Shown: positions 6,102 through 24,038, counted from the stretch's first letter. The stretch: 32,000 nucleotides of DNA from Clostridia bacterium (GCA_030526225.1 JAUNDF010000010.1:1-32000); one strand, 5' to 3'. The notes: generated by a model from the letters alone, not told the origin. Made by a program: numbers and translations.

Positions 6102-6290
6102 TGTGTTTTCCTCCTTCACAGGTTGGATGATATCAATCAAGCCTTTTTCAGGCCGTGATTCGGAGAATATGGTTTGATTGGTTGATTTTTCCATTCGCTT
6201 TCGGTATATTGATTATAGCAGAGAAAACGACAGTTCACCAGTGCAATAATGGAGTGAATATCAACCGGATACAACAAAGGAGGGATTCCC

Positions 6291-7178: not shown

Positions 7179-7191
7179 TCAGACAAAAACA

Positions 7192-7219
7192 AGCGCCGCC
7201 CTTTCGGACGGCGCTCTTT
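7192..7219. terminator. Hairpin between convergent genes (possibly a bidirectional terminator)
   Basis: agcgccg..cc / tttc loop / gg..cggcgct, flanked by aaaaaca on the left and ctttgt on the right. Confidence 0.55.
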
Positions 7220-7238
7220 GTATGCGCGGAATATGGGA

Positions 7239-8972: not shown

Positions 8973-9069
8973 TGGTTCTTCCTCCTTATCATACAGGAAA
9001 GATTTCATTACGATAAAAGTATAACAATCTCCGCCCAAGGGGTGAAATTCATTTTTATCATTATTACTA

Positions 9070-9097
9070 TTCCAAACCGGCATAACTATGGTATAAT
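9070..9097 (+). promoter_or_regulatory. Candidate promoter for the LysR gene in the divergent intergenic region
   Basis: TTCCAA, 16-nt spacer ending in TGg, TATAAT (9092-9097). Confidence 0.4.
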
Positions 9098-9178
9098 AGA
9101 GACAAATGACGCAGGAAATGGCCGGAAACGGCGTTTTTGACGGATTTCCCAAGGGGATTATGCGGAGGATAAGGCAAA

Positions 9179-10171: not shown

Positions 10172-12424
10172 TTGGAGCATGTGTAGGCCGGTGTCACCGG
10201 GACCATCTATCGCAATGAGGACAACGGGTATACTATCCTGACTGCCCGGGCCGGGCGCAGCGAAATCACCGTGGTGGGGACGCTCCCTGCCCTGTCCCCG
10301 GGGGAGCAGTGCGTGTTCCATGGCGACTGGGTGGAGCATCCGCAGTATGGGCGGCAGCTGAAGTGCACGGGCTGTGAAATCAAAAAGCCCACCACCCTGC
10401 TGGGCATTGAGCGGTATCTGGGCTCGGGGCTGATTCGCGGCGTGGGCCCTTCCACCGCCAAGCAGATTGTGGAAACCTTCGGCGAGGAAACGCTGACCAT
10501 CCTCAGCGAGCATCCGGAGCGGCTGCAGGAGGTCCCCGGCATGGGGCGCAAGCGCTGGCGGGTGATTGCGGAAAACTTTCAGGAGCAGAACGCCATGCGG
10601 GAATCCATGGTGTTTCTGCAGTCCTACGGCATTTCCCCCAACCTGTCGGTAAAAATCAGCCGGCTGTACGGCGACAGGACCGCCGATGTGATTAAAAACA
10701 ACCCCTACCGCCTTTGCGAGGATTTGGAAGGCGTGGGCTTTCAGACGGCGGACCGCATCGGCATGGCCATCGGCATTGCCGCGGACAGCGAGTTCCGCAT
10801 CCAGTCGGCGCTGAAGTACATGCTGCGGGAGGCCTCCGTCTCCATGGGCCATGTGTATCTGCCCCTGCGGGAGCTGGTAACGAAAACCGCCCAGCTGCTG
10901 CGCACGGAGGAGGCGCTGGTATCCCGGCAGGTGAAAACGCTGATGCTGCGGCGGGACATCATCTGCAAGCAGGAGGAGGGCGAGGAGGACATCCGCGTGT
11001 ATCTCGCCGCCTTTGACAGCGCCGAGAGCGAGGTGGCCAAGCGCCTGTGCGAGCTGATTGCCTCCCTTGCCCGGGAAGAAAACCCCCAGGCGGAGCAGGA
11101 CATCGACCGGTTTGAAAAGCGCCACGGCATCCACTTTTCCGCCCAGCAGAGAAAGGCCATCACCATGGCCATGGAGATGGCCCTGAAAAACCAGATCGTG
11201 GTGATTACCGGCGGCCCCGGCACCGGCAAAACAACGATTATCAACTGCATCATCTCCCTGCTTTCGCGCGATGGGGAGGTGAAGCTGTGCGCCCCCACCG
11301 GCCGCGCCGCCAAGCGCATGACATAGGCCACCGGCGTGGAGTCGAAGACCATCCACCGCCTGCTGGAATACGGCGGGGACGACGGCGCCTTTGCCCGGGA
11401 TCAGGATAACCCCATCGAGGGCGACTGCGTGATTGTGGACGAGACCTCCATGGTGGATTTGATGCTGATGCGCTCCCTGCTGCGGGCCATTGAGCCGGGG
11501 ACAAAGCTGATTCTGGTGGGCGATGCCGACCAGCTGCCCAGCGTGGGCGCGGGCAATGTGCTGGGGGATATCCTCGACAGCGGCATTGTGCCTGTGTGCC
11601 GCCTGACGGACATCTACCGGCAGGATGAACAGAGCCGCATTGTGGTCAATGCCCACCGCATCAACCGCGGAGAAATGCCCCTGCTCAACGAAAAGGGCAC
11701 GGATTTCTTCTTCGAGCGCAAGGATTCCTTTGCCCAGACGGCCCAGACCATTGTGCAGCTGATGACCAAACGGCTGCCCGCGTTTTTGAAATTCCCGGAG
11801 GATGAAACTGCGGACCGCGCCGTCCGGAGCATACAGGTGCTGGCACCGGCGAAAAAGGGCGAGTGCGGCGTTCTGGTGCTCAACACCATGCTGCAGGAAG
11901 CCCTCAATCCCCCCGCGGCGGACAAGCCGTTTATCAAATACGGCGAAACCATCTTCCGCCTTGGGGACAAGGTGATGCAGACCAAAAACGACTACCAGAT
12001 TGAGTGGCGCAAGGAAAGCCGCCTTGGCTGGGAGGACGGCAAGGGCGTGTTCAACGGCGACGTGGGCTACATCACTGCGGTGGATGAGGAGGAGCACTGC
12101 CTCACGGTCCTCTTTGATGAGGAAAAGGAAGTGGTGTACCAGTCCGCTCAGCTGGAAAATCTGGATCTGGCCTACTGCCTGTCGGTGCACAAGAGCCAGG
12201 GCAGCGAGTTCCCGGTGGTGATTATGCCCGTGGTGGGCGGCTCCAGCATGCTTTTGACCAGAAACCTGTTCTACACCGCCCTGACCCGTGCGCGGAGTCT
12301 GGTGGTGCTGGTGGGCCGGGAGGAAATCATCCGGCAGATGACGCAGAACAATCACATTCAGAAGCGGTACACCTCTCTGGCAGGGCGGCTGCGCATGATG
12401 GGTGCGCTGCTGCCCAAAGAGTGA
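10172..12424 (+). CDS. recD2: RecD2-type ATP-dependent DNA helicase (750 codons) with two in-frame TAG codons
   Basis: TTG 10172 lies 9 nt after aaaaaggagg. The N-terminal GTIYRNEDNGYTIL motif lies between TAG 10184 and the first standard-code start. HhH region, Walker A ITGGPGTGKTT, APTGRAAKRMT[TAG]ATGVESKTIHRLL, and helicase motifs through SVHKSQGSEF. ORFs 10271..11326 and 11336..12424 share one frame. Stop TGA. Confidence 0.8.
10184..10186 (+). other. In-frame TAG (candidate sense codon), recD2 codon 5
   Basis: ttg gag cat gtg TAG gcc ggt gtc acc ggg acc atc tat cgc aat gag gac aac ggg. The conserved N-terminal peptide follows it. Confidence 0.55.
11324..11326 (+). other. In-frame TAG in recD2, at a position that is Glu in RecD2 homologs as I recall them
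   Basis: GRAAKRMT[TAG]ATGVESKTIHRLL, compared with the family pattern GRAAKR(L/M)(S/T)E.TG..A.TIHRLL recalled from memory. Confidence 0.65.
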
Positions 12425-13158
12425 GGCCCCGAAACCTCTGGCAGCGGCTGTCATCGGCGCTGTTGGGGTCGGTTTATCCCGATGACACGACCTGCCTTGT
12501 CTGCGGCGAAAGCCTGCCGGGCGAGGTGCTTTGCCCCGATTGCCGCAAAAGGCTGGATGCACTGCGCCTTTCAGGGGCTGTGTGTGACCGCTGCGGTCAT
12601 CCCCTGCCGCAGGGGGAGGCATGCCCCTTCTGTGCCGTCCATTTCCTGCCTGTGACGGCCCGCTCTGCATGGGCGCACAAGGATGAGGCACGGCGGCTGG
12701 TGCATCTGCTGAAGTTCCATCAGCAGGCAATTGCGGCGGATATCATGGCCCGGGCCGCGGCAGAAGCGGCCGGTGAAATGAACCTGTGCGCCGATACGGT
12801 GGTCACATGGGTCACCATGCCGGAAAGGCGAAAGCGGGAGCGGGGCATCGACCACGGCTATGAGCTTGCATCCCGCACGGCGGATTTGCTGGGGCTGCCC
12901 TGCCGTCAGCTGCTCCTTCGAAGGGACGGACGGCACGAAATCACCCAGCGGGGGCTGGACGGAGAACAGCGGGCGCAGAACCTTTCCGGTGCCTTCTCCT
13001 GCATGCCCATGAAGGGCGGCCATGTACTCCTGCTGGATGATGTGCTCACCACCGGCAGAACGGTGACCGTGTGCGCCCGGGCACTGCTGGAGGCCGGCTG
13101 TGAATCGGTCAGCGTGGTCACTGCCACCCGCGCCGTGGACAGGAAAACAGAACTGTAA
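12421..13158 (+). CDS. comFC: ComF-family protein (ComFC-like phosphoribosyltransferase)
   Basis: N-terminal Cys-rich zinc-finger region (CLVCG...CPDC...CDRCG...CPFC). C-terminal PRT motif VLLLDDVLTTGRT. GTG start overlaps the recD2 stop (GTGA). Stop TAA. Confidence 0.78.
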   Translation: MRPRNLWQRLSSALLGSVYPDDTTCLVCGESLPGEVLCPDCRKRLDALRLSGAVCDRCGHPLPQGEACPFCAVHFLPVTARSAWAHKDEARRLVHLLKFHQQAIAADIMARAAAEAAGEMNLCADTVVTWVTMPERRKRERGIDHGYELASRTADLLGLPCRQLLLRRDGRHEITQRGLDGEQRAQNLSGAFSCMPMKGGHVLLLDDVLTTGRTVTVCARALLEAGCESVSVVTATRAVDRKTEL

Positions 13159-13185
13159 TATTACAATAGGAAATGAGAGAACACC

Positions 13186-13710
13186 ATGTACGAGGGAAGA
13201 CTCATTCGTCTGCGCGCCTTTGAGCGCGGGGATGTGGATACGAACCACGCCTTTGTCAACGACTACGAAACGCTCAGGAGCATGATCAGCGGCATTCCGT
13301 TCCCGGCCTCCATGGAGGATGAATACCGCTGGCTGGACCAGCAGACCGGCTATTCCCGCGGGGAGTACCAGTTTGCGGTGGAGGATTTTGAGGGCTATCT
13401 GGTGGGCCGCTGCGGCATCACCCGGGTGGACTGGAAAAACGGTCTGGCCGAGCTGGCCATGATGATTGGCACGCCCTACCGGGGCCGGGGCTACGGCAGC
13501 GAAGCCATGGAGCTGCTGACGGACTTCTGCTTCCGGGAGATGAACCTGCACAAGCTGAAGGTCACCGTGTTTGCCTTCAACAAGGCGGCCATCCGCTGCT
13601 ACGAAAAGAACGGCTTTCATCAGGAGGGTCTGCTGAAGAAGGAAATCTTCCGCGACGGCGCATGGCAGGATGTGGTCATCATGGCCCGGTTCCGGGAAGA
13701 TGGCGTATAA
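13186..13710 (+). CDS. GNAT-family N-acetyltransferase (RimJ/RimL-like)
   Basis: IRLRAFERGD...RGRGYGSEAMELL...HKLKVTVFAFNKAAIRCYEKNGF is a typical GNAT core. Stop TAA. Confidence 0.85.
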   Translation: MYEGRLIRLRAFERGDVDTNHAFVNDYETLRSMISGIPFPASMEDEYRWLDQQTGYSRGEYQFAVEDFEGYLVGRCGITRVDWKNGLAELAMMIGTPYRGRGYGSEAMELLTDFCFREMNLHKLKVTVFAFNKAAIRCYEKNGFHQEGLLKKEIFRDGAWQDVVIMARFREDGV

Positions 13711-13735
13711 AAACAAAACGAATGCACCGCCGTGC

Positions 13736-13764
13736 TTGACATCCCATGAACCGCAAGGTATCAT
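13736..13764 (+). promoter_or_regulatory. Candidate sigma-A promoter for aspartate kinase. It overlaps a hairpin (13741-13769 plus a T-run) that may terminate the GNAT gene.
   Basis: TTGACA (13736-13741), 17-nt spacer, TATCAT (13759-13764). Inverted repeat atcccatga / tcatgggat followed by tgttttt. Confidence 0.45.
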
Positions 13765-13803
13765 GGGATTGTTTTTGATTTGATATCAGGAGGCACAAAG
13801 CCC

Positions 13804-15120
13804 ATGAAGAAGATTGTAACCAAGTTCGGCGGCAGCTCTCTGGCCAATGCCGCCCAGTTTGCCAAGGTGAAGGAAATCATCCTGCTGGACCCTGCGCGCC
13901 GCTATGTGGTGCCCTCTGCCCCCGGCAAGCGCTTTGACGGGGATGACAAGGTGACGGACCTGCTGTACCGCTGCCACCGTCAGGCCATGGAAGGGGAGAG
14001 CATTGCCGAGACCTTCGGCAAAATCCGCGCCCGCTATCAGGAAATCGTGGATGAGCTGAAGCTGACCGTGGACATCACCCCCGAGCTGGACGAGGTGGAA
14101 GCGCAGATTGCCGCCGGTGCCACTGCCGATTACTGCGCAAGCCGCGGCGAATACCTCAACGGCATCCTGCTGGCCAATTATCTGGGCTGGCGCTTCCTGG
14201 ATGCGGCCAAGGGCATCTGCTTTGATGAGGAAGGCCGCTTTGATGCCGACAAGACCAACACCATCATGTCTGCTCTGCTGTGCGATGACATGCCTGCCGT
14301 TGTCCCCGGCTTCTACGGTGCCAAGCCCAACCGGGAGATTCACACCTTCAGCCGCGGCGGCAGCGACATCACCGGCGCCATTGTGGCCCGTGCCGTCAAG
14401 GCCGACATGTACGAAAACTGGACGGATGTATCCGGCTTCCTGATGGCTGATCCCCGCGTGGTGGAGGCTCCCCGGGAGATTGCATCCATCACCTATTCCG
14501 AGCTGCGTGAGCTGAGCTACATGGGTGCCAGCGTGCTCCATGCCGATGCCATGTTCCCCGTGCAGCGGGCCGGCATCCCCACCAACATCCGCAACACCAA
14601 CAACCCCAATCATCCCGGCACCATGATTGCCGTGCATCAGCCCCATGACGAGAGCCACCCCACCATCACCGGCATCGCCGGCCGCAAGGGCTTCTCCACC
14701 ATCAACGTGGAAAAGGCCATGATGAACAGCGAGCTGGGCTTTGGCCGCAAGGTCCTGCAGGTGATTGAGGAGGAGGGCCTGTCCTTTGAGCATATGCCCA
14801 CCGGCATCGACACCCTGTGCGTGGTGGTGGAAAGCAAGGAGCTGCAGCCCAAGCGGGACGAAATCGTCCGCCGCATTGTGGAGCTGACCGGCGCCGATAC
14901 CATCTCCATTCATGAAAACCTGTCTGTCATTGCCACCGTCGGCCGCGGCATGGTCAACAACTGCGGTACGGCCGCGCGGCTGTTCTCTGCCATGTCCCGG
15001 GCGGGCATCAACGTGCGCATGATTGATCAGGGCTCCAGCGAGCTTTCCATTATTGTGGGTGTGGATGATGATGATTTTGAGACCACCATCCGTGCCATCT
15101 ACCGCGAGTTTGTGGGCTGA
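13804..15120 (+). CDS. lysC: Aspartate kinase
   Basis: MKKIVTKFGGSSLANA is the amino-acid kinase N-terminus, and ACT-like domains lie at the C-terminus. AGGAGG lies 10 nt upstream. Stop TGA. Confidence 0.9.
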   Translation: MKKIVTKFGGSSLANAAQFAKVKEIILLDPARRYVVPSAPGKRFDGDDKVTDLLYRCHRQAMEGESIAETFGKIRARYQEIVDELKLTVDITPELDEVEAQIAAGATADYCASRGEYLNGILLANYLGWRFLDAAKGICFDEEGRFDADKTNTIMSALLCDDMPAVVPGFYGAKPNREIHTFSRGGSDITGAIVARAVKADMYENWTDVSGFLMADPRVVEAPREIASITYSELRELSYMGASVLHADAMFPVQRAGIPTNIRNTNNPNHPGTMIAVHQPHDESHPTITGIAGRKGFSTINVEKAMMNSELGFGRKVLQVIEEEGLSFEHMPTGIDTLCVVVESKELQPKRDEIVRRIVELTGADTISIHENLSVIATVGRGMVNNCGTAARLFSAMSRAGINVRMIDQGSSELSIIVGVDDDDFETTIRAIYREFVG

Positions 15121-15142
15121 TATATCTGTAAAATTTCTTCAG

Positions 15143-15180
15143 CGGAGCGCCTGAAACATGGTGCTCCGTTTGTGTGTTTG
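15143..15180 (+). terminator. Rho-independent terminator after lysC
   Basis: cggagcgcc / ggtgctccg stem followed by tttgtgtgttt. Confidence 0.65.
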
Positions 15181-15204
15181 ATATGATAAAAGGGGGAAAT
15201 GATG

Positions 15205-15966
15205 ATGCAGGTGACGTGGCAGATGTATGTGATTGTACTGCCGCTGATTTTCTTTGCCAGCTTTGTGGATTCCGTGGCCGGGGGCGGCGGATTAATCAGC
15301 CTGCCGGCATATTATCTGGCGGGGCTGAACCCCTATCTGGCGGCGGGCACCAACAAGCTGTCTGCCTGTGTGGGCACGGTGGCCTCCTGCGGCAAGTACA
15401 TCGCCAGCGGCAAGGCCAGCCTGAAGGTGGGCATACTGGCGGCGGTGATGGCGCTCCCCGGCAGCTGGCTGGGAACGCTGCTGCAGCTGCGCATCCCGGA
15501 GCAGACCGTGCGCATCATGATGCTGTGCCTGATTCCCGTGGTGGCGGCGGTGGTGCTGACCAACAAAAACAAGGAACAGCGCCATGCGGCGGTGCCGGAG
15601 AAGTACTTTATGGCAGCTGCGGCGGCCATCGGTCTGGTCATCGGCTTCTATGACGGCTTGGTGGGTCCCGGTACCGGCACGTTCCTGATTATCCTGTTTA
15701 CCATGCTGCTGGGCATGGACGGCGTGCTGGCCTCCGGCACGGCCAAGATGGTGAATCTTGCCAGCAATGTGGCGGCACTGGTGACCTACCTGACCGCCGG
15801 CAAGGTGCTGCTGGCCCTGGGTATCCCCGCGGCCTTCTGCTCGGTGATGGGCGGCCTGCTGGGGGCAAAGATGACCATCAGCAAGGGCGCGGGCTTTGTG
15901 CGCCGGATGATGCTGGTGGTGCTGGCCCTGCTGCTTGCCAAAATGCTGTTTGATGTGGTATCATAA
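15205..15966 (+). CDS. TauE/SafE (DUF81) family sulfite/anion exporter
   Basis: Polytopic membrane protein with the FVDSVAGGGGLISLP and GFYDGLVGPGTGTF signatures. Of three consecutive ATGs (15199, 15202, 15205), the third has the best spacing from GGGGG (15192-15196). Stop TAA. Confidence 0.85.
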   Translation: MQVTWQMYVIVLPLIFFASFVDSVAGGGGLISLPAYYLAGLNPYLAAGTNKLSACVGTVASCGKYIASGKASLKVGILAAVMALPGSWLGTLLQLRIPEQTVRIMMLCLIPVVAAVVLTNKNKEQRHAAVPEKYFMAAAAAIGLVIGFYDGLVGPGTGTFLIILFTMLLGMDGVLASGTAKMVNLASNVAALVTYLTAGKVLLALGIPAAFCSVMGGLLGAKMTISKGAGFVRRMMLVVLALLLAKMLFDVVS

Positions 15967-16020
15967 TCAGATAGAATAAGCCCAAATTGGGCTTGTCAGG
16001 ATGTTTGGGAGGTGTGTCGG

Positions 16021-16419
16021 ATGGCGCGGGAAAACCGCATCACCCTGTGTCTGCCGGGGCAGGCCGATCATTCACTGGTGCTTCGCACCATGGTAGGCGG
16101 CGTGGCCTATCTGTATGACCTGAGCGTGGATGACATGGATGATCTTCGCGCCGCCGCGGATGAGGCCTTCGACTGCCTGCTGCATCAGGGCAGCACGGTG
16201 GAAAGCATCACCACCGACATTCTCCGGGAGGATGGCCGCGTATCAGCATTGCTGACGGCTGCCTTCGGGGAAAAGCAAACATCCGCCCCCGGCGAAGAGG
16301 AGAACGAAATCTCGCTGGCGGTACTGAAAACCATCATGCCCGATGTACAGCTGACCGTGGACGGGGAGGGCCGGATTGCGGCCATCCGCCTGACGCTTTC
16401 CACCGGGAGGGCATCATGA
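16021..16419 (+). CDS. Small SpoIIAB/RsbW-like anti-sigma-factor-like protein with a degenerate ATPase N-box
   Basis: ATG 16021 lies 8 nt after GGGAGG. AADEAFDCLLHQG resembles the anti-sigma kinase box E-A-x-x-N-A-x-x-H-G, but Cys replaces the Asn. The stop overlaps the sigma-factor start (ATGA). Confidence 0.45.
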   Translation: MARENRITLCLPGQADHSLVLRTMVGGVAYLYDLSVDDMDDLRAAADEAFDCLLHQGSTVESITTDILREDGRVSALLTAAFGEKQTSAPGEEENEISLAVLKTIMPDVQLTVDGEGRIAAIRLTLSTGRAS

Positions 16420-17144
16420 TGGAAGAAGACATCAATGCCCTGCTGGCAGGGTATGCCCGTGCACCGGAGCCGGAGACGCTGAACCGGCTGACGGAGCATT
16501 TTCTGCCCCTGTCGCGGCAGGTGGCGGCCAAATTCTATGGGCGCGGTGCCGAAATGGAGGATTTGCGGCAGGTGGCAGCCATGGCGCTGATGAACGCCAT
16601 CAAACGCTTCGACCCTGACAAGGGGGTCAAGTTTACCACCTTCGCCGTTACCACCATGGCGGGTGAGGTGCGCAACCACCTGCGGGACAAGGCCGCGCTC
16701 ATTCGCCCCTCCCGTGATTTGCGGGAAAAGGCGGCGCAGGTGAACAAAATCACCGACCGGCTGGCCCAGCAGCTGCTGCGGGAGCCTACCGTGCGTGAAA
16801 TTGCCGGCGAAATGAACATCACCCCCGATGAGCTGCTGCACATCCTCGACAGCCGGGAAAAGCTGGAGGTTGCCTCCCTGAACGAAATCTCCGGGGAGGA
16901 TGACCGCGCCCTTGAGGAGCGGCTTGGTCAGACCGACGGCGGCTACGAGGCCGTGGAGCAGCGGGACATGTGGCAGTGGATTATGCGCCAGCTGACCGGG
17001 CAGGAGCAATTGCTGGTCCGGCTGCGTTATGTATAGCGGATGGGTCAGCGGGAGTGCGCCGCCAGAATGAACCTGTCGCAAATGCAGGTCAGCCGCATGG
17101 AGCGGCGCATGCTGGCGCGCATCCGCAGCAAAATGACATCATAA
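16416..17144 (+). CDS. Group-3 sigma-70 family factor (SigF/SigG/SigB-like, 242 aa) with one in-frame TAG before region 4.2
   Basis: Region 2 (DLRQVAAMALMNAIKRFDPDKGVKFTTFAVTTMAGEVRNHLRD), region 3, then LLVRLRYV[TAG]RMGQRECAARMNLSQMQVSRMERRMLARIRSKMTS. The region 4.2 HTH is encoded only after the TAG. Stop TAA at 17142-17144. Confidence 0.8.
17034..17036 (+). other. In-frame TAG (candidate sense codon) in the sigma factor
   Basis: cgt tat gta TAG cgg atg ggt cag. The HTH follows in the same frame. Confidence 0.65.
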
Positions 17145-17174
17145 ACAAGGATTGAAACCAAGGAGCGTGAAAGG

Positions 17175-18392
17175 ATGTACAGAGAAACACCGCCGATGGC
17201 ACCGCAGCCGAGGAAGAAGCTGCATGCTGTGCAGATTGTCATCATCGTGGTGGCCGTGCTGTTTGCCCTGTGGTACCTGTACAAAACCCTGGTGCCGGCG
17301 GCAACGCCCTATGCCACCATACAGGCAGGCACCCTGGGTGCAAGATACTCCGGCGATGTGCTCATCGTCCGGGATGAGACCCCCTATGATGCCGAGGGCG
17401 TGAGCAGCATCGAGTATGTGGCGGAGGAGGGCAAGGTGGCCCGCAACCGCTCCACCATCTGCAATGTGTTCTCCACCGGTTATTCCACCAAGGAGACCAC
17501 CGCCCTGCAGAACTACCGCGACCAGATCAAGCAGTATCAGCTGCAGCTCATCGGCGAGGAAACCACCTACGATGCCCGCATGGAGCGGCTGGACAGCGAT
17601 GTTTTGTAGCTGGCCCGGGAATTCCGCGCCATGATTGCCGGTCAGCCCGGCAATTTGCTCAATCAGGAAACGCTGCTCAATGCCGCCATCGGCTCCCGTC
17701 AGCTGTATCTGAAGAAAAAGTACGGCTCCGACCAGCGCCTCAGCCGGTTGTATGACGACGAACAGAGCCAGCTGCAGCGCATTGCCAGCTGGACCAAGCA
17801 GTATACCGCCGCGGGCGAGACCATCGTCAGCTTTTATACCGACGGCTATGAATACGGCCTGACCGCCTCCAACTTCCGTGATTTTACCCCGCAATAGGTC
17901 CGGAAGATGATTGCCGGTCAAAAGCCGGAGCTGACCACGGCCCAAAAGGGCAAGACCACCATCTACCGCACCGTGCGTGACGGCGTGTGGTACGCGCTGA
18001 TGCTGGTGAAGGACTCCACATGGAATCCGGTGGAGGGCCAGACCTACGAGCTGAAGCTGGAGCGGGTGGAAAACACCCGTGTGCTGGCCACGGTGGAATC
18101 CTTTACAAGAAACGGCAATGAGCTGCTGGTGCGCCTTGTGGTGCATGACTCCGTGGAGCCGGTGCTGTACATGCGCACCTGTCAGGCAGAGCTGGGCGAT
18201 TATGTGCAGAGCCTGATGGTGCCCAAGCGCGCCATCTATACCCAGGACAACATGACCGGCGTGGTGGTGCTGGACGGTGCCAATCAGCTGTTTGTGCCGG
18301 TGAACATCCTTTTGGAGGACGGCGGCAATGTGTACATCTCCGCCATCACCCAGGGTCTGCTGTATGAAGGGCAGACCGTGATGCTGTTCTGA
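17175..18392 (+). CDS. HlyD-like membrane-anchored protein (405 codons) with two in-frame TAG codons
   Basis: N-terminal TM anchor (VQIVIIVVAVLFALWYLY). ORFs 17175..17609, 17631..17897 and 17907..18392 are in one frame, separated only by TAG codons. Beta-barrel-like C-terminus. The family call is from general resemblance only. Stop TGA. Confidence 0.6.
17607..17609 (+). other. In-frame TAG in the HlyD-like gene
   Basis: Context RLDSDVL[TAG]LAREFRAMIAG. Confidence 0.5.
17895..17897 (+). other. In-frame TAG in the HlyD-like gene
   Basis: Context NFRDFTPQ[TAG]VRKMIAGQKPEL. Confidence 0.5.
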
Positions 18393-18429
18393 TGCGGCAT
18401 ATCTCAAGCAGGAAGGAAGGTCTTTGCGG

Positions 18430-19134
18430 ATGGAACTGAACCGGGAGCAGATTGCCCAGCGGTACGAGGAAATTTGCGCGGAGGTACAGCAGCTGGCGGA
18501 TGAAAGCGGCTATGCTGTGCCCAAAATCGTTGCGGTCACCAAGACCCATCCCCTGGAGACCATTTTGCCCATCCGGGAGCTGGGCATCCGTGAGGTGGGC
18601 GAGAACCGGGTGCAGGAAATTATGGAAAAACTGCCTGCGCTGGAAGAAAATTTTCAGATTCACCTGATTGGAAGGTTGCAATCCAATAAAGTTAAATATA
18701 TAATAAACCATGTATGCCTTATTCATTCTGTGGACAGGCTCAGCCTTGCGCAGGAGATTGACCGCCAGGCCCAAAAGGCCGGAAGGCGGATGCCTGTGCT
18801 TGTTCAGGTGAGCCCCGCAGGGGAAGAGCAGAAGGGCGGCATCCCTCCCGAGGAGACGGAGGCCTTCCTTCGGCAGCTGGCACAATTGCCCGGCCTTGAT
18901 GTGCGCGGGCTGATGGCTGTGATGCCAAAATCAGAGGATGAAGCGTACCTGTCGGGGCTTTTTGCCGATATGCGTGCGCTGTTTGAGCGTCTTCGGGACG
19001 AAAACATAGAGGGGATTACCATGGAGGAGCTTTCCATGGGCATGTCCGGCGATTACCGGCTGGCCGTGCGCCATGGCGCAACCATCATCCGGGTGGGCAG
19101 TGCGCTCTTCGGGCCCCGGGATTATTCCGTGTGA
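18430..19134 (+). CDS. yggS: YggS/YlmE-family pyridoxal-phosphate homeostasis protein
   Basis: VAVTKTHP (Lys of the PLP site), GENRVQE, HLIGRLQSNKVK, SMGMSGDY, IRVGSALFG. An alternative TTG start lies at 18424. Stop TGA. Confidence 0.9.
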   Translation: MELNREQIAQRYEEICAEVQQLADESGYAVPKIVAVTKTHPLETILPIRELGIREVGENRVQEIMEKLPALEENFQIHLIGRLQSNKVKYIINHVCLIHSVDRLSLAQEIDRQAQKAGRRMPVLVQVSPAGEEQKGGIPPEETEAFLRQLAQLPGLDVRGLMAVMPKSEDEAYLSGLFADMRALFERLRDENIEGITMEELSMGMSGDYRLAVRHGATIIRVGSALFGPRDYSV

Positions 19135-19156
19135 TTGTGTGTAGGGGGTAAACGAA

Positions 19157-20356
19157 TTGTCTTTTAAGGATTGGAAACAACAGCTTGCATCCAGGCTGCG
19201 CGGCAAGGGCGCACAGCAGCAGGAGGAAGACCGGTTCTCCGGCTCCTTCAGCGGCTATCATCCTGCCGGCAACCGGGATATGTACGATACATCCCGCATG
19301 GCTGCCCAGCAGCAGGAGCCCCAGCAGGCGGCCTATCAGCCCCAGCAGGAGATGAACGGCATGATGCCCGAGCAGGGCTATGCCCCTCAGATGCAGGGCT
19401 ATACCTGGCAGCAGCAGGCACAGCAGATGAACATGCCGCCCGTGCCCCAGCAGACAACATGGCAGCCCCAGCAGGAGATGCGCCAGCAGACCTCCTCCTG
19501 GCAGACGGCATGGCAGCCCCGTCAGGAGCAGCCCGCCCCCGAAGCGGCAGGCCGCCAGAATCAGCCCCGGCAGGACAACATCAGCTACCTGAATGTCAAC
19601 TTCACCGGCAGTGACGGCCGCGGCTATGTGGGCGTGGAGCGCGCCGTGCTTTTGGCCGGCATCAGCGACTGCAACCGCGTGATTGAATACATGCGCAACA
19701 ACGAGTCGGTCATCCTGAACATGGATAACATCGCCGACGACAAGGAAGTGCAGCGCTGCCTGGATTTCGTATCCGGTGCCGCCTTCACCCTTGAATATAC
19801 CGTCACCAAGCTGAGCCGCAGCAAGCGCATCTACATGCTGTCCCCTGCGGTGATTCTGGTGCTGACCGATGCCGGCATGGCCAACTGGAAGACCGGTGCC
19901 GATGCCCAGCCCCTGCGCGAGCAGGCAGAGGAAAGCCGCGCATGGACCGAGCAGCCCGCCTACGGTGACCGCCGCGCCGCCTATGAAGCACCCTATGCCC
20001 AGCAGAGCTACGGCAATGCTCAGGGCTACACCGCCCGCCAGTCCTATGAGGACATGCAGCAGGGCTACACCATGCAGCAGAGCTATGGCCAGCAGGGCTA
20101 CACGGCCCAGCAGCCCTATTACGATATGCAGCAGGGCTATACCGCCCAGCAGCCCTACTATCAGCAGGGCTATACCATGCAGCAGCCCGCCTATGAGCAG
20201 TATGCCCAGCCCCAGATGACCTTCGGTCAGGTGGCAGCCGTACCGCCCTACAGCACCGGCAGTGTGGATGTATCCGGCGCCGCACCCCGCAGCGCCTATG
20301 ATTCCGATACCCGCCGCGGCTTCTACGGCACGGCGCAGACCCAGCTTGCCCGATAA
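19157..20356 (+). CDS. sepF: SepF-domain cell-division protein with long Gln/Tyr-rich low-complexity extensions
   Basis: Central SepF-like core (VLLAGISDCNRVIEYMRNNESVILNMDNIADDKEVQRCLDFVSGAAFTLEYTVTKLSRSKRIYMLSP). Positioned between yggS and yggT as in Firmicutes division (dcw) clusters. TTG start 8 nt after GGGGG. Stop TAA. Confidence 0.72.
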   Translation: MSFKDWKQQLASRLRGKGAQQQEEDRFSGSFSGYHPAGNRDMYDTSRMAAQQQEPQQAAYQPQQEMNGMMPEQGYAPQMQGYTWQQQAQQMNMPPVPQQTTWQPQQEMRQQTSSWQTAWQPRQEQPAPEAAGRQNQPRQDNISYLNVNFTGSDGRGYVGVERAVLLAGISDCNRVIEYMRNNESVILNMDNIADDKEVQRCLDFVSGAAFTLEYTVTKLSRSKRIYMLSPAVILVLTDAGMANWKTGADAQPLREQAEESRAWTEQPAYGDRRAAYEAPYAQQSYGNAQGYTARQSYEDMQQGYTMQQSYGQQGYTAQQPYYDMQQGYTAQQPYYQQGYTMQQPAYEQYAQPQMTFGQVAAVPPYSTGSVDVSGAAPRSAYDSDTRRGFYGTAQTQLAR

Positions 20357-20368
20357 GGGGGTGGCCTG

Positions 20369-20644
20369 ATGCTGCTGTTGATGCGCATTCTCCGCATGGC
20401 ACTGCTGGTGTATGAGCTGCTGCTCATCGCCTATGTGCTGCTCAACTGGCTCAAGCCCGCCGCCAACCGCTGGACGGAGCTGCTCCGCCGCGTGACCGAG
20501 CCGGTGCTCACGCCCCTTCGGGTGGCCATTGTTTCCCGGCTGCCGGCAAGGTATCAGCCCATTGACTGGTCCCCTGTGGCGGCACTTGCGATTTGTGAAA
20601 TCATCGGCTGGATTCTCGGCAGAATCGCCGCCATTTTCGCATGA
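20369..20644 (+). CDS. yggT: YggT/YlmG-family membrane protein
   Basis: 91 aa with two TM helices. VYELLLIAYVLLNWL...TEPVLTPLR is typical of YggT. The stop overlaps the ylmH start (ATGA). Confidence 0.85.
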   Translation: MLLLMRILRMALLVYELLLIAYVLLNWLKPAANRWTELLRRVTEPVLTPLRVAIVSRLPARYQPIDWSPVAALAICEIIGWILGRIAAIFA

Positions 20645-21390
20645 TTAAGGATACTGCACAGCAGCTGAAGCTGCGGCTGAATCAGCTGGCCCAGCGGGCC
20701 GACAGGCTGTACTGCGCTGTCCCCGGCCGCTTTCTGGCGGCAGAGGAGCAGGCCATGGCACAGGATGCCGCCCGGGATAACGGGGTGGATGTATCCTTTT
20801 GCGGCGGCTGGAGTGATGCATAGCGGGTGCAGGTGTGCTTTCATCCCTTCGGGGAGGAGCCGCTGTTTACCGCCCAATGGGTGGAAGCCAAATGGAACAG
20901 CCGCTTTTCCACCGCGGCCCACAGCGATTTGCTGGGGAGCCTGATGGCCCTTGGCATGGAGCGTGCCTTTCTGGGCGACATCATCGTTGAGGAAGGCCGG
21001 GCACTGGTCTGCGTGATGCCCGAGCTGGCGGCTCGTCTGCCGGTGGAATGGACAAGCGCGGGACGCACGCCCATCTGGGTATCGGTGCTGGGCAGCCCGC
21101 CTGAAATTGCCCCGCCTGAAGGGAAGCAGCTGCGCGACACAGTGCCGTCCCTGCGGCTGGACTGCGTGGTGGCAAGCGGCATGAAGCAATCCCGCACCAA
21201 AGCGGCATAGCTGATTCGTCAGGGGCTGGTGATGGTCAATCATCGCCCGTAGGAACGCTGTGACCGGCTGCTGCAGGAGGGCGCACTGGTATCCATCCGC
21301 CATTTCGGCAGAATCCGTCTGCTGGAGGTGGGGGAACCCACCCGCAAGGACCGGCTGCCCGTGGTGCTGGAAATATTCGCGAAGAAATAA
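20641..21390 (+). CDS. ylmH: YlmH-like S4-domain RNA-binding protein (249 codons) with three in-frame TAG codons
   Basis: GGWSDA[TAG]RVQV matches the YlmH GGY..AER motif. The S4 domain reads LRLDCVVASGMKQSRTKAA[TAG]LIRQGLVMVNHRP[TAG]ERCDRLLQEGALVSIRHFGRIRL. All segments share one frame. Stop TAA at 21388-21390. Confidence 0.75.
20821..20823 (+). other. In-frame TAG in ylmH at the conserved Glu of GGY..AER
   Basis: GGWSDA[TAG]RVQVCFHP, compared with B. subtilis YlmH GGYDRAERKRA (recalled from memory). Confidence 0.65.
21208..21210 (+). other. In-frame TAG in the ylmH S4 domain
   Basis: Context SRTKAA[TAG]LIRQGLVMVN. Confidence 0.6.
21250..21252 (+). other. In-frame TAG in the ylmH S4 domain
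   Basis: Context VNHRP[TAG]ERCDRLLQEGALVSIRHFGR. Confidence 0.6.
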
Positions 21391-21433
21391 TTAAATCCAC
21401 ATAAACGGCCCAACAAGAAAGGAGATTTTCACC

Positions 21434-21913
21434 ATGCAGGTTACCATTGAAATGATTGAGAGCAAAGAGTTTGATTTTGTTCCCCAGGGCTACAAGCCCG
21501 AGCAGGTGGATGAGTTCCTGGATGACATCATTGACGAAATGATTAACATGCAGGATGAAATCCGCGATCTGCAGGGCAAGCTGGCCGCAGCCAACGCCGC
21601 CCCCAAGGCCGCTCCCGTGGCTGCAGAGCCCCGCGCCACCGATACCAACACCGCCGCCTTCCGCGAGATTCTGGAAATGGCACAGCGCGTGAAGGACGAA
21701 ACCATCACCAAGGCACAGACCGAGGCTGATGCCATCGTGGCCAAGGCCAACGAACAGGCCAAGGCACAGCTGGGCAGCCTGATGGAAGACAAGGCCAAGC
21801 TGGAAAAGCAGGTGGCCGCCCTGAAGGAAGCCGCCTCCGCTTACCGTGCCAACTTCGAGGCACTGCTGGCCGCCCAGCAGGATGCCATCGAAAAGGCCAC
21901 CGATCTGTTCTGA
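21434..21913 (+). CDS. divIVA: DivIVA-domain cell-division protein
   Basis: IESKEFDFVPQGYKPEQVDEFLDDI is the DivIVA N-terminal lipid-binding domain, followed by a coiled coil. Stop TGA. Confidence 0.9.
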   Translation: MQVTIEMIESKEFDFVPQGYKPEQVDEFLDDIIDEMINMQDEIRDLQGKLAAANAAPKAAPVAAEPRATDTNTAAFREILEMAQRVKDETITKAQTEADAIVAKANEQAKAQLGSLMEDKAKLEKQVAALKEAASAYRANFEALLAAQQDAIEKATDLF

Positions 21914-21921
21914 TGCTTCAA

Positions 21922-21952
21922 GACCTCTGCCCGCTGCGGCAGGGGTCTTTTT
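21922..21952 (+). terminator. Rho-independent terminator after divIVA
   Basis: gacctctgcc / ggcaggggtc stem followed by ttttt. Confidence 0.75.
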
Positions 21953-22068
21953 CCATGCACGCAGGCAGGAAAAATGGGGCTTTGCATCGAATAGCATAAA
22001 TTGGATGAGTATCGTCCGTTGAATCCTGCAAATGCACATGATGGTTCATCATAGAAAAGAGGTATTTT

Positions 22069-23169
22069 ATGGCAGACAAGCAGCAGACAACCTGCCCCCG
22101 CGTGGATATCGGCGGTCAGGCAGTGATGGAAGGCGTGATGATGAAGGGCCCCGATGCCATCGCCATCACCGTCAGACGGCCCGATGGCTCCATGGCCGTG
22201 CGCTATGAGCCCTATGTGGCCCTGAGCAAAAAGCACAAGTGGATGGGCTGGCCCGTCATCCGCGGCGCCGTGAACATGGCCAACATGCTGGTCATGGGCA
22301 TGCAGACGCTGGAAACCTCCACCAAGATGCTGGGCATCATGGATGAGGAGCCCACCAAGTTTGAAAAATGGCTGGCAGAGAAGCTGGGCAAGGGCATCGA
22401 CAAGGTGGTCATGGGCATGGCCATGATTCTGGCCGTGATTCTGTCCGTGGGCCTGTTTATCCTTGTGCCCACCGCCGTGGAAAAGGGCATCATTGCCTGG
22501 ACCGGCTCCACCACCGCCGCAACGCTGGTGGGCGGCGTTGTGAAGATTCTGCTGCTCATCGGCTACATGATTTTCTGCGGCATGGTGCCCGATGTGCGCC
22601 GCACCTTCCAGTACCACGGTGCCGAGCACAAGACCGTGTACTGCCACGAGCATGACCTGCCCCTGACCCCCGAAAACGCCAAGGGCTTCACTACCCTGCA
22701 CCCCCGCTGCGGCACCGCATTTTTGCTGATTGTGTTCGTCATCTCCATTCTGATGACGCTGCTCATCGGCCGGGGCATCACCGTGTTTATCTGGCGGTTC
22801 CTGTTCCATCTGGCCATGCTGCCGGTGATTGCAGGCGTCAGCTACGAGGTGCTGAAGGGTCTGGCCCACAGCGACAGCAAGCTGGCCCGTGCGCTCCGCT
22901 GGCCCGGACTGCAGATGCAGCGCCTGACCACCCGCGAGCCCGACGAAAAGATGCTGGAATGCGCCATCGTTTCCATGAATGTGGCCCTGTACGGCCTGCC
23001 CAAAAATGCGCCCAAGAACCGGGACGGCTTCACCATCCTGCACAGCTACAAGGAATCCGAAAAGGGCTATGTGTTTGAAAAGCCCGAGGTGAAGCCGGTT
23101 GCGGAAGCAGCTGAAGCTGTTGCCGAAGAAGCAGATGAAGAAGCGCCTGTTCAGGAGCCCCAGGCATGA
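22069..23169 (+). CDS. DUF1385-family membrane protein (commonly a prmC neighbour)
   Basis: IGGQAVMEGVMMKG...YHGAEHKTV...HPRCGT are hallmarks of DUF1385. The stop overlaps the prmC start (ATGA). Confidence 0.85.
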   Translation: MADKQQTTCPRVDIGGQAVMEGVMMKGPDAIAITVRRPDGSMAVRYEPYVALSKKHKWMGWPVIRGAVNMANMLVMGMQTLETSTKMLGIMDEEPTKFEKWLAEKLGKGIDKVVMGMAMILAVILSVGLFILVPTAVEKGIIAWTGSTTAATLVGGVVKILLLIGYMIFCGMVPDVRRTFQYHGAEHKTVYCHEHDLPLTPENAKGFTTLHPRCGTAFLLIVFVISILMTLLIGRGITVFIWRFLFHLAMLPVIAGVSYEVLKGLAHSDSKLARALRWPGLQMQRLTTREPDEKMLECAIVSMNVALYGLPKNAPKNRDGFTILHSYKESEKGYVFEKPEVKPVAEAAEAVAEEADEEAPVQEPQA

Positions 23170-24008
23170 CACCCAGACAGCTGATTCGCGAAACGGCGAA
23201 GCAATTTCAGGCGGCGGGTGTGCCCGATGCCCTGCTGGATGCATCCCTGCTGCTGGCCCACCTGACCGGCATGGAGCCCATGGCCCTGCGGCTGGATGAG
23301 GATACACAGCTGGCGGAGGACATCCTCCGGCAATACGCACAGCTGGCCCGGCGCCGCTGTCAGCGCGAACCCTTGCAATATCTGACCGGGGAAGTTGTCT
23401 TCCTCGGTCGTGTTTTCCATGTGGACAGCCGCGTGCTGATTCCCCGGCCCGAAACGGAGCTGCTGGTGGAATTAGCCGCATCAGAGCTGAAAAAGCACGG
23501 TGCGGGTGCCAAGGCCCTTGACCTGTGCTGCGGCAGCGGCTGCATCGGCGTATCCCTTGCACTATAGGTGCCGGGGAGCGAGGTGCATCTGTCCGATTTA
23601 TCTGCCGATGCACTGGCGGTGACCGGCATCAACGCCGAAGCCCTTGCGGCAAAGGTACAGCTGCATCACGGCGATATGTTTGCGCCGCTGGAGGGTGAAC
23701 GGTTCCACGTGCTGGTGTCCAATCCGCCGTATATCCCCGCGGAGGATTGCCGTCAGCTGCAGGCAGAGGTCCTGCGGGAGCCCATGACCGCCCTTGACGG
23801 CGGCGAGGACGGGTACGATTTCTACCGCACCATCGCAAAGGAAGCGCCCCGTCATCTGCTGCCCGGCGGTGCCCTCTTTCTGGAGATCGGCTGGGATCAG
23901 GCCGAAGGGGTGTGCCGCCTGCTGAGGGAAGCCGGCATGGTGCAGGTGACAAGCCATCAGGACTACAACGGCATTAGCCGCATGGTGGAAGCCCACATGG
24001 CTGATTGA
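23166..24008 (+). CDS. prmC: Release-factor glutamine N5-methyltransferase PrmC/HemK (280 codons) with one in-frame TAG
   Basis: EPLQYLTGEVVFLGRVFHVDSRVLIPRPETE, SAM motif DLCCGSGCIGVSLAL[TAG]VPGSEVHLSDLS, and the catalytic NPPY (VSNPPYIP), which lies downstream of the TAG. ORFs 23166..23567 and 23568..24008 share one frame. Stop TGA. Confidence 0.8.
23565..23567 (+). other. In-frame TAG (candidate sense codon) in prmC
   Basis: gca cta TAG gtg ccg ggg. It aligns with the E of E. coli PrmC ALASERPDCEI (recalled from memory). Confidence 0.62.
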
Positions 24009-24038
24009 GTTTGAACGACGCAAAAGGATGAAGAAGCA

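What the first reader, a model, noticed from the sequence alone, without database searches (positions are those of the whole stretch)
11324..23567. Which amino acid? Three TAG sites fall on positions that are Glu in the homologs I can recall
RecD2 reads GRAAKRMT[TAG]ATG..KTIHRLL, against a family pattern with E before .TG. YlmH reads GGWSDA[TAG]R, against GGY..AER. PrmC reads SLAL[TAG]VPGSEV, against E. coli ALASERPDCEI. The sigma-factor site (RYV[TAG]RMGQRE) is also often acidic. GAG to TAG is a single transversion. The other sites lie at variable positions and are uninformative. Gln is the precedent from code 15 and CAG to TAG is also one step, so Gln cannot be excluded from about four informative sites aligned from memory.
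Basis: inference. Interest (0 to 1): 0.8.

Follow-up and report, generated by a model that had tools for sequence, protein, structure and literature searches.

The report
Bacterial TAG stop codon read as glutamate
This uncultured gut-type Clostridia bacterium appears to read the stop codon TAG as glutamate and has lost the release-factor-1 gene from its usual place, a TAG reassignment I did not find reported for any bacterium.

Summary
All four quoted TAG sites are in the sequence as described. The window has 33 genes and 9,762 codons, with 15 in-frame TAG, no in-frame TAA or TGA, and no gene ending in TAG.

The PrmC site (23565) is not Glu-dominated: A56 G28 E19 D10 in the 120 closest homologs, and E is only a 28% plurality family-wide. 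The sigma site is mixed.

An empirical likelihood over 8 sites puts Glu ahead of Asp and Gln by more than 5 nats. Resampled sets of true Gln, Asp, Lys, Thr, Ala or His positions never reached that margin (0 of 20,000).

Three independent relatives carry DUF1385-prmC-prfA-sua5. The window has prmC, a 30 bp gap, then sua5, with no prfA remnant.

A second assembly (Logan, run SRR24915835) reproduces every one of the ten TAGs its contigs cover.

No tRNA-CUA lies in the window, and I could not reach the rest of the genome. The verdict is that TAG=Glu is well supported and Gln is effectively excluded. I found no published report of a bacterial UAG reassignment.

The parts
10172..12424 (+). RecD2 helicase gene. 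The true start is TTG 10172, preceded by an AAGGAGG ribosome-binding site. It contains two in-frame TAGs.
   Evidence: TIGR01448 874 bits. The N-terminus aligns to relatives' MEKLEAG....
10184..10186 (+). In-frame TAG, codon 5 of RecD2.
   Evidence: Relatives have GAG/GAA (Glu) in 13/13.
11324..11326 (+). In-frame TAG in RecD2 helicase domain 1A (AAKRMT-x-ATG).
   Evidence: Glu in 13/13 relatives. Glu in PDB 3e1s RecD2 and 1w36 RecD.
16416..17144 (+). SigB/F/G-type sigma factor. The region 4 helix-turn-helix lies downstream of the TAG.
   Evidence: Pfam regions 2/3/4. Identity to L017 is 0.51 before the TAG and 0.72 after it.
17034..17036 (+). In-frame TAG in sigma region 4.
   Evidence: Relatives show D5 H5 Q3 E3 R1. 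E in 8x6g and K in 1l0o. Weakly informative.
17175..18392 (+). HlyD_2 family membrane protein with two in-frame TAGs (17607, 17895).
   Evidence: PF12700. The 17895 column is Q17 E16, with E in the closest relatives L017 and L002. The 17607 column is T12 Q9 E4.
17607..17609 (+). In-frame TAG, HlyD_2 codon 145.
   Evidence: Variable column. The TAG is also present in the Logan contig L036.
17895..17897 (+). In-frame TAG, HlyD_2 codon 241.
   Evidence: Column Q17 E16 D1 Y1. The TAG is also present in L036.
20641..21390 (+). YlmH (RNA-binding, S4 domain) with three in-frame TAGs.
   Evidence: PF17774 plus PF01479. Matches PDB 8s1p YlmH at 6e-27.
20821..20823 (+). In-frame TAG, YlmH codon 61 (GGWSDA-x-R).
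   Evidence: Glu in 13/13 relatives. Glu in B. subtilis and S. pneumoniae YlmH.
21208..21210 (+). In-frame TAG, YlmH codon 190 (S4 domain).
   Evidence: Column E5 D3 A3 S1 L1.
21250..21252 (+). In-frame TAG, YlmH codon 204.
   Evidence: Column E7 T4 L1 Q1.
23166..24008 (+). PrmC, the release-factor glutamine methyltransferase, with one in-frame TAG.
   Evidence: TIGR03534 276 bits.
23565..23567 (+). In-frame TAG, PrmC codon 134.
   Evidence: Variable column: A56 G28 E19 D10 in the closest homologs, and an E plurality of 41/149 family-wide.
24009..24038 (.). 30 bp prmC-sua5 spacer, at the position where relatives carry prfA (release factor 1).
   Evidence: L038, L039 and L043/L044 have DUF1385-prmC-prfA-sua5. 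Their prfA scores 488-496 bits on TIGR00019 (L038, L039) and has PVT and GGQ motifs. tblastn finds no RF1 remnant anywhere in the window.
1748..3100 (+). BspA-type leucine-rich-repeat gene in a 33-36% GC islet. It has six in-frame TAGs (1877, 2036, 2672, 2798, 2987, 3095) and no TAA or TGA. The last TAG directly precedes the TAA stop.
   Evidence: PF13306 8e-84. GC profile. Logan contig L042 confirms the junction with host DNA and four of the TAGs. The columns do not identify the amino acid.

Best explanation
In this organism TAG (UAG) is a sense codon for glutamate throughout the genome, and only TAA and TGA terminate translation. The organism is an uncultured Christensenellales/Aristaeellaceae-like Clostridia MAG (proteins MDO44833xx, run SRR24915835).

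Shown:
- TAG occurs in frame in 6 of 33 genes and never ends a gene.
- The protein sequence downstream of each TAG is as conserved as the sequence upstream.
- At conserved positions the TAG always replaces Glu.
- The prfA gene for release factor 1, the factor that reads UAG, is missing from its conserved slot between prmC and sua5.

Inferred:
- RF1 has been lost from the whole genome, so UAG no longer terminates.
- A tRNA with anticodon CUA, charged with Glu, decodes UAG. It could be a mutated tRNA-Glu copy, or a tRNA-Gln-derived CUA tRNA charged by a non-discriminating GluRS and not amidated.
- RF2, still methylated by the retained PrmC, handles UAA and UGA.
- Close relatives almost never use TAG as a stop (about 3%), so the codon was nearly free before takeover. 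TAG codons then arose mostly from GAG by a single G-to-T change.
For: 1. TAG is sense. The 9,762 codons hold 15 in-frame TAG, 0 TAA and 0 TGA. Stops are TAA 18, TGA 15, TAG 0.
2. Random nonsense mutation would give TAG only 60% of the time in the native genes and 23% in the AT-rich LRR gene. That gives 0.6^9 x 0.23^6, about 1.5e-6.
3. Identity to relatives downstream of the TAGs is equal or higher than upstream.
4. An independent assembler reproduces all ten TAGs that its contigs cover, at 100% identity.
5. Glu. There are three invariant-Glu columns at 13/13 each, and E is the plurality at two further YlmH sites.
6. The empirical likelihood favours E over D by 5.2 nats and over Q by 5.5 nats. 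The resampling calibration gave 0/20,000 for every other residue tested (Q, D, K, T, A, H).
7. In 675 invariant columns the window agrees with its relatives 96% of the time, and all 3 TAGs in such columns are in Glu columns. PDB homologs agree.
8. RF1. Three relatives have prmC-prfA-sua5, whereas the window has a 30 bp gap and no remnant.
9. TAG stops are rare in close relatives: 4/102 and 0/37.
10. There is no shared sequence context after the TAGs.
Against: - No tRNA with anticodon CUA is in the window. The rest of the genome could not be reached, so the decoder is unseen.
- prfA is shown absent only from its usual locus, not from the genome. That locus is also rearranged upstream, since rho-rpmE is missing.
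- Only 9 TAG sites are alignable, and 3 of them carry most of the signal.
- The PrmC, sigma and HlyD_2-145 columns, and all LRR columns, do not favour Glu on their own.
- The LRR gene has more TAG (6) than GAG (4), which simple GAG-to-TAG drift does not explain.
- All the data come from one sequencing run of one sample.
- With TAG stops already at about 3% in relatives, 0/33 TAG stops has no statistical weight by itself.
Confidence: 0.8

Rival explanations
1. TAG is decoded as glutamine, as in genetic code 15 and the TAG-recoded gut phages, through a tRNA-Gln(CUA) one mutation away from CUG.
For: Gln is the commonest precedent for UAG. One column (HlyD_2 codon 241) is Q17/E16 and another (codon 145) has Q9. 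CAG is abundant in the window, with 362 codons.
Against: The three invariant columns are Glu, not Gln. The window never deviates from any of the 21 invariant-Gln columns, and in the 32 other invariant-Glu columns it departs only once (to Lys), never to Gln. Q loses to E by 5.5 nats. Sets of 8 true Gln sites never mimic the observed pattern (0/20,000). The closest relatives (L017, L002) have no Q at any TAG site. There is no Q in the PrmC column.
Confidence: 0.04
2. Suppression is partial or ambiguous. RF1 still exists elsewhere in the genome, and a Glu-inserting amber suppressor tRNA competes with it, so TAG is both stop and Glu.
For: prfA absence is shown only at one locus, which is also rearranged upstream. 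TAG stops are so rare in relatives that 0/33 does not discriminate.
Against: Genes with 2, 3 and 6 TAGs (RecD2, HlyD_2, YlmH, LRR) need near-complete read-through to give useful amounts of protein. About 18% of the genes are affected (6 of 33). prfA has been removed cleanly between two retained neighbours, with no remnant.
Confidence: 0.1
3. TAG encodes pyrrolysine or another non-canonical residue, as in the archaeal all-TAG-as-Pyl code.
For: Genome-wide UAG=Pyl is the only prokaryotic cellular precedent for UAG as a sense codon. Alignments cannot see non-canonical residues directly.
Against: A lysine derivative is not expected to replace invariant Glu in three columns. Lys ranks far below Glu. 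The window holds no pyl genes and no methylamine methyltransferase genes. Pyl cannot be excluded from the window alone.
Confidence: 0.03
4. The TAGs are real stops or errors, arising from pseudogenes in a decaying genome or from G-to-T sequencing or assembly artefacts that hit GAG codons.
For: GAG-to-TAG is a G-to-T change, the signature of oxidative damage, and it would by itself place stops on Glu codons.
Against: The same process would turn GAA into TAA and GGA into TGA. Under G>T/C>A mutation only, TAG is 41% of the expected nonsense codons, yet the count is 15:0:0. There are no frameshifts, and conservation downstream of the TAGs is undiminished. Two assemblers agree at 100%. The AT-rich LRR gene stays open over 450 codons apart from its TAGs.
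Confidence: 0.02

Closest known systems
Peritrich ciliate and Blastocrithidia nuclear codes (NCBI tables 30 and 31: UAA/UAG read as Glu)
   Same: UAG is read as glutamate, and the new codons sit on conserved Glu positions.
   Different: Those are eukaryotic nuclear codes in which UAA and UAG change together, and they involve eRF1 and tRNA adaptations. Here the organism is a bacterium, only UAG changes, UAA remains the commonest stop (18/33), and the RF1 gene is missing from its locus.
Genetic code 15 and TAG-recoded gut bacteriophages (TAG read as Gln; crAss-like, Lak and others)
   Same: Only TAG is reassigned, TAA and TGA remain stops, and the setting is the animal or human gut microbiome.
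   Different: The amino acid there is Gln (tested here and rejected). Those are phages that carry their own suppressor tRNAs and whose hosts use the standard code. Here housekeeping chromosomal genes of the cell are affected.
Bacterial UGA reassignments with RF2 loss (codes 4 and 25: Mycoplasmatales, Hodgkinia, Absconditabacteria/Gracilibacteria, Eggerthellaceae MAGs)
   Same: The logic mirrors this case: one stop codon becomes sense, the release factor specific for it disappears, and the codon was already rare in sister lineages.
   Different: Those involve UGA with RF2 and Trp or Gly, mostly in small low-GC genomes. This case involves UAG with RF1 and Glu in roughly 60% GC sequence. All bacterial stop reassignments reported in the papers I read involve UGA.
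Archaeal genome-wide UAG=pyrrolysine code (Kivenson et al., bioRxiv 10.1101/2024.09.30.615893)
   Same: UAG is a genome-wide sense codon in a prokaryotic cell, and coding density alone hardly reveals it.
   Different: That code inserts a 22nd amino acid using the pyl machinery. Here a canonical amino acid (Glu) is indicated, and no pyl genes are seen in the window.
Engineered RF1-deleted, amber-free E. coli (C321.deltaA, RFzero, 'Ochre')
   Same: Deleting prfA frees UAG for sense decoding by a CUA tRNA.
   Different: Those strains are synthetic. This would be a natural counterpart.

Membership tests
Genome-wide stop-codon reassignment (as opposed to pseudogenes or errors) | The codon occurs in frame in conserved genes, with homology continuing downstream. 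| tested here: met
   There are 15 in-frame TAGs in 6 genes. Identity to relatives after the TAGs is at least as high as before them.
Genome-wide stop-codon reassignment (as opposed to pseudogenes or errors) | Only that one stop codon is found in frame, and it is not used as a terminator. | tested here: met
   In-frame counts are TAG 15, TAA 0, TGA 0. Stops are TAA 18, TGA 15, TAG 0. The chance under random nonsense mutation is about 1.5e-6. The 0/33 stop count alone is weak, because relatives use TAG as a stop only about 3% of the time.
Genome-wide stop-codon reassignment (as opposed to pseudogenes or errors) | Loss of the release factor that reads the codon (RF1/prfA for UAG). | tested here: inconclusive
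   prfA is absent from the conserved prmC-prfA-sua5 slot that three relatives have, and the window holds no remnant.
Genome-wide stop-codon reassignment (as opposed to pseudogenes or errors) | A tRNA whose anticodon (CUA) reads the codon. | not testable with these tools
   The only tRNA in the window is Thr-GGT. The MAG is not among the searchable genome contigs, and only short Logan contigs overlapping the window were retrievable.
UAG = Glu (as in NCBI tables 30 and 31) | At conserved alignment columns, the codon falls on Glu. | tested here: met
   Three invariant-Glu columns at 13/13 each. E is the best residue overall by more than 5 nats. Calibrated by resampling.
UAG = Glu (as in NCBI tables 30 and 31) | UAA is reassigned together with UAG. 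| tested here: not met
   TAA terminates 18 of 33 genes and is never in frame. This is therefore not table 30 or 31 but a UAG-only variant.
Genetic code 15 / phage-type UAG = Gln | At conserved columns, the codon falls on Gln. | tested here: not met
   No TAG falls in any of the 21 invariant-Gln columns. Q trails E by 5.5 nats. 0/20,000 resampled Gln sets match the observed pattern.
Pyrrolysine decoding of UAG | pylT and pylSBCD genes are present, and UAG occurs in methylamine methyltransferase genes. | not testable with these tools
   None are in the window. TAG sites sit on Glu columns, not Lys-like ones.

The most novel reading that the evidence does not exclude
This lone Christensenellales lineage uses a previously undescribed bacterial genetic code in which UAG means glutamate, UAA and UGA are the only stops, and RF1 has been lost. 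It would be the first natural UAG reassignment to a canonical amino acid in a cellular prokaryote, a mirror image of the UGA/RF2 codes, and a natural counterpart of engineered RF1-free E. coli. The decoding tRNA might be a Gln-type CUA tRNA charged with Glu by a non-discriminating GluRS and left unamidated. That would link the reassignment to the indirect Gln-tRNA pathway.
Probability: 0.75. Interest if true: 0.92.

Novelty: new variant of a known kind. Interest (0 to 1): 0.87.

Why it matters
- Every natural bacterial stop-codon reassignment in the papers I read involves UGA, so a UAG=Glu code with RF1 loss would extend the known range of bacterial code evolution.
- It arises in a high-GC, apparently free-living gut-type lineage rather than a reduced endosymbiont. 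Sister lineages that almost never use TAG stops offer a clean test of codon-capture versus ambiguous-intermediate models.
- There are practical consequences. The genome is currently annotated with code 11, so about a fifth of its genes are split into fragments: PrmC, YlmH, HlyD_2 and RecD2 appear as separate proteins in NCBI and in protein databases.
- Code-prediction tools based on coding density would miss it.
- A natural Glu-inserting CUA tRNA and synthetase pair, in an RF1-free background, would interest genetic-code engineers. It also bears on barriers to phage infection and gene transfer.

Tried and rejected
- **tRNA-CUA in the window.** ARAGORN and Rfam found only tRNA-Thr(GGT). The relatives' loci held no tRNA-Glu to use as a template.
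- **Reaching the rest of the genome.** The MAG is not among the GTDB representative contigs; the best hit was 69% identical. Exact-protein look-ups returned only short Logan contigs inside the window (L036, L037, L042). NrdG, the CoA-transferase, Mop and the ACT protein were not on record.
- **Pattern scans for a Glu-type tRNA body with a CUA anticodon.** There were 0 hits in the metagenome contigs (first pattern), 0 in the viral contigs, and 2 unrelated short contigs with the second pattern. None of these bears on this organism.
- **The six LRR TAG sites for amino-acid inference.** The closest homologs are at most 41% identical and repetitive. The columns are flat (S, T, D, E, G, I) and were not used to decide the residue. 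No close phage homolog of the LRR gene was found.
- **Sister lineages with the same code.** The next-closest aspartate kinase among 5.8 billion proteins is 75% identical, and none of the 35 relatives has in-frame TAGs in the shared genes.
- **Literature.** Four searches found no report of a bacterial UAG reassignment, nor of this run or protein accession.
- **Context-dependent recoding (a SECIS- or PYLIS-like signal).** Rejected, because the sequences after the 15 TAGs share no motif.
Full report
**What is in the window.**
The 32 kb window is about 60% GC and carries a Firmicute-type gene set. On the + strand it encodes LysR, RecD2, ComF, a GNAT, aspartate kinase, TauE, a sigma factor with an upstream partner, an HlyD_2 protein, YggS, SepF, YggT, YlmH, DivIVA, DUF1385, PrmC and Sua5/TsaC. 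On the - strand it encodes dUTPase, KsgA, NrdG, NrdD and a flavoprotein reductase. When TAG is treated as sense, six + strand genes that standard translation breaks into fragments become full length.

Across 33 genes and 9,762 codons there are 15 in-frame TAG, no in-frame TAA or TGA, and stops of TAA 18, TGA 15, TAG 0. The in-frame TAGs lie at:

| Gene | TAG positions (first base) |
|---|---|
| LRR gene | 1877, 2036, 2672, 2798, 2987, 3095 |
| RecD2 | 10184, 11324 |
| Sigma factor | 17034 |
| HlyD_2 | 17607, 17895 |
| YlmH | 20821, 21208, 21250 |
| PrmC | 23565 |

**The sequence is real.**
The aspartate kinase, DivIVA, DUF1385 and Sua5 proteins are exact matches to NCBI MAG proteins MDO4483361.1, MDO4483373.1, MDO4483374.1 and MDO4483377.1, annotated 'Clostridia bacterium', on a 38,163 bp contig. 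Three contigs from an independent assembler (Logan, run SRR24915835) cover window 2471-9231, 13308-16573 and 16833-22194. They have no mismatches, and they contain every one of the ten TAGs in those ranges. Gene callers using code 11 split the affected genes there too. The N-terminal PrmC fragment even sits as its own cluster representative in the protein library.

**Checking the observation.**
The four quoted peptide contexts are exactly as written. I fetched 35 syntenic loci from Christensenellales-type MAGs (Candidatus Limiplasma and uncultured rumen and gut Clostridia). HlyD_2 identity to the window ranged from 40% to 69%. I aligned the window proteins to these loci by tblastn. None of the relatives has an in-frame TAG in the shared genes. 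Their residues at the window's TAG sites are:

| Site (first base of TAG) | Gene and position | Residues in relatives |
|---|---|---|
| 10184 | RecD2 codon 5 | E 13/13 |
| 11324 | RecD2 | E 13/13 |
| 20821 | YlmH | E 13/13 |
| 21208 | YlmH | E5 D3 A3 S1 L1 |
| 21250 | YlmH | E7 T4 L1 Q1 |
| 17895 | HlyD_2 | Q17 E16 D1 Y1 |
| 17607 | HlyD_2 | T12 Q9 E4 and others |
| 17034 | sigma | D5 H5 Q3 E3 R1 |

Solved structures agree for the two conserved sites. D. radiodurans RecD2 and E. coli RecD have E at the RecD2 site. B. subtilis YlmH (GGYDRAERKR) and S. pneumoniae YlmH have E at the YlmH site.

The PrmC claim holds only for E. coli. In the 120 closest PrmC homologs the column is A56 G28 E19 D10 S5 N2. 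In 149 representatives that are at most 50% identical to each other it is E41 L39 A12 H10 Y10. RecD2 actually starts at TTG 10172, behind an AAGGAGG ribosome-binding site, and reads M-E-H-V-[TAG]-A-G, against relatives' M-E-K-L-E-A-G.

**Which amino acid.**
I built an empirical substitution table P(relative residue | window residue) from all aligned positions of these same genes and relatives. It gives P(E|E)=0.53, P(Q|Q)=0.41, P(E|Q)=0.09 and P(Q|E)=0.05. I then scored the 8 alignable TAG sites, counting each site once. The scores are E -13.9, D -19.1, Q -19.4, and everything else below -24.

Using only the three closest relatives, E again wins, by 10 nats over D and 25 over Q.

Calibration by resampling gave a clear result. 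Random sets of 8 genuine Glu positions from the four genes give E a median margin of 5.0, against 5.2 observed. Sets of genuine Gln, Asp, Lys, Thr, Ala or His positions never reach that margin (0 of 20,000 each).

Among 675 columns that are invariant in at least 10 relatives, the window carries the same residue in 96% of the columns without a TAG (647/672). Three TAGs fall in such columns, and all three are among the 35 invariant-Glu columns. In the 21 invariant-Gln columns the window always has Gln.

Adding the flat PrmC and LRR columns does not change the ranking. A non-canonical residue cannot be ruled out from alignments, but it is not expected at invariant Glu positions.

**These are not pseudogenes or errors.**
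GAG-to-TAG nonsense mutations would also land on Glu codons, so this rival needed its own test. Given the window's codon usage, random single-base nonsense changes would produce TAG 60% of the time in the native genes and 23% in the AT-rich LRR gene. With only G>T/C>A changes the figure is 41% in the native genes. The observed count of 15 TAG, 0 TAA, 0 TGA has a probability of about 1.5e-6.

Identity to the closest relatives is as high or higher after the TAGs as before them:

| Gene | Identity before TAG(s) | Identity after TAG(s) |
|---|---|---|
| RecD2 | 0.68 | 0.78 |
| Sigma | 0.51 | 0.72 |
| HlyD_2 | 0.66 | 0.69, then 0.71 |

The sequences following the 15 TAGs share no motif, which argues against a local recoding signal.

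**Release factor 1.**
In three independent relatives the gene order is rho-rpmE-DUF1385-prmC-prfA-sua5. These relatives are GCA_051886675.1 (an Aristaeellaceae MAG), an ENA 194 kb contig, and GCA_963627075.1. Their PrmC is 60-63% identical to the window's. The intervening gene in the first two scores 488-496 bits on the prfA equivalog TIGR00019 (cut-off 423) and has the RF1 PVT motif and GGQ; the third carries the same PCRF/RF-1 domain pair.

In the window, prmC ends at 24008 and sua5 starts at 24039. tblastn with the relatives' RF1 finds nothing in the 32 kb. This is locus-level evidence for RF1 loss. The locus is also rearranged upstream, because DivIVA directly precedes DUF1385. A relocated prfA elsewhere in the genome therefore cannot be excluded.

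**Evolutionary setting.**
TAG terminates 18% of orthologous genes across all 35 relatives. In the closer clade it terminates only 4 of 102, and 0 of 37 in the three prmC loci. The codon was therefore already almost unused as a stop.

The recoded lineage is isolated. The next-closest aspartate kinase among 5.8 billion proteins is 75% identical, and the window's own cluster has a single member.

Outside the LRR gene, TAG makes up about 1.3% of inferred Glu codons (9 TAG, 390 GAG, 277 GAA).

**Mechanism, and which steps are shown or inferred.**
Shown: TAG is translated, it stands where Glu is required, TAA and TGA terminate, and prfA is gone from its slot while prmC (needed for RF2) is kept.

Inferred: a CUA-anticodon tRNA charged with Glu decodes UAG, RF1 is absent genome-wide, and RF2 alone terminates. 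The tRNA was not found. The window has only tRNA-Thr(GGT), and the rest of the genome was out of reach. Scans of public metagenome and viral contigs for a Glu-type tRNA body with a CUA anticodon gave nothing relevant.

**Comparison with what is known.**
UAG=Glu is known only in eukaryotic nuclear codes, together with UAA (tables 30 and 31). UAG-only reassignment is known as Gln in code 15 and in gut phages, and as Pyl in some archaea. Shulgina and Eddy (2021) state that all known bacterial changes reassign UGA, and the 2026 papers I read add only further UGA cases and sense-codon changes. I found no report of this run, this protein accession, or a bacterial UAG reassignment. I therefore rate this as a new variant of a known kind.

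**Verdict.**
The Glu interpretation is supported and sharpened, and the surrounding evidence (TAG-only read-through, prfA deletion) makes a genuine code change the best explanation. My confidence in that explanation is about 0.8. The remaining uncertainty lies in the unseen tRNA, the genome-wide status of RF1, and the reliance on a single sample.

Noticed in passing
window 24009-24038 (between prmC and sua5): The release factor 1 gene (prfA) that sits between prmC and sua5 in three relatives is cleanly absent here. Only a 30 bp spacer remains, and the window holds no remnant.
   Followed up: yes
window 1500-3150 (LRR gene 1748-3100): A 33-36% GC islet in a 60% GC genome encodes a BspA-type LRR protein. 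TAG density there is 14 times that of the native genes (6 TAG against 4 GAG, 0 CAG), and the last TAG lies directly before the TAA stop. This suggests a foreign or fast-evolving gene already adapted to, or coming from, a TAG-sense background. Its origin is unexplained.
   Followed up: partly
window 10172-10186: RecD2 starts at TTG 10172 (ribosome-binding site AAGGAGG), not at the GTG 10271 that ORF listing suggests. Its fifth codon is a TAG aligned to an invariant Glu.
   Followed up: yes
window 21913-22069, compared with L038, L039 and L043: There is a synteny break. In relatives DUF1385 is preceded by rho and rpmE, whereas here it follows DivIVA directly. None of the 35 dcw-tail loci of relatives has DUF1385/prmC within 10 kb. 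The RF1 locus was therefore rearranged in this lineage.
   Followed up: partly
relatives L001-L012, L017, L019, L028, L031, L035, L038, L039, L043: The closer relatives almost never use TAG as a stop (4/102 and 0/37 genes), while more distant Limiplasma-like relatives use it often. This looks like a possible pre-adaptation for TAG capture.
   Followed up: partly
public databases (P0364; Logan gene calls on L036): The recoded genes are stored as separate fragment proteins in NCBI and in protein libraries (PrmC 133 aa; HlyD_2 144, 88 and 161 aa; YlmH 60 and 127 aa), because code 11 was used for annotation.
   Followed up: yes
L045 278-353 and 600-674 (JGI contig Ga0310811_10314524): An unrelated 1.8 kb metagenome contig carries two tandem tRNA genes with anticodon CUA. 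It turned up in the pattern scan and has no evident link to this organism.
   Followed up: no
window 825-900: The single tRNA in the window, tRNA-Thr(GGT), lies about 600 bp upstream of the low-GC LRR islet. No integrase or repeat was seen that would mark an integration event.
   Followed up: no
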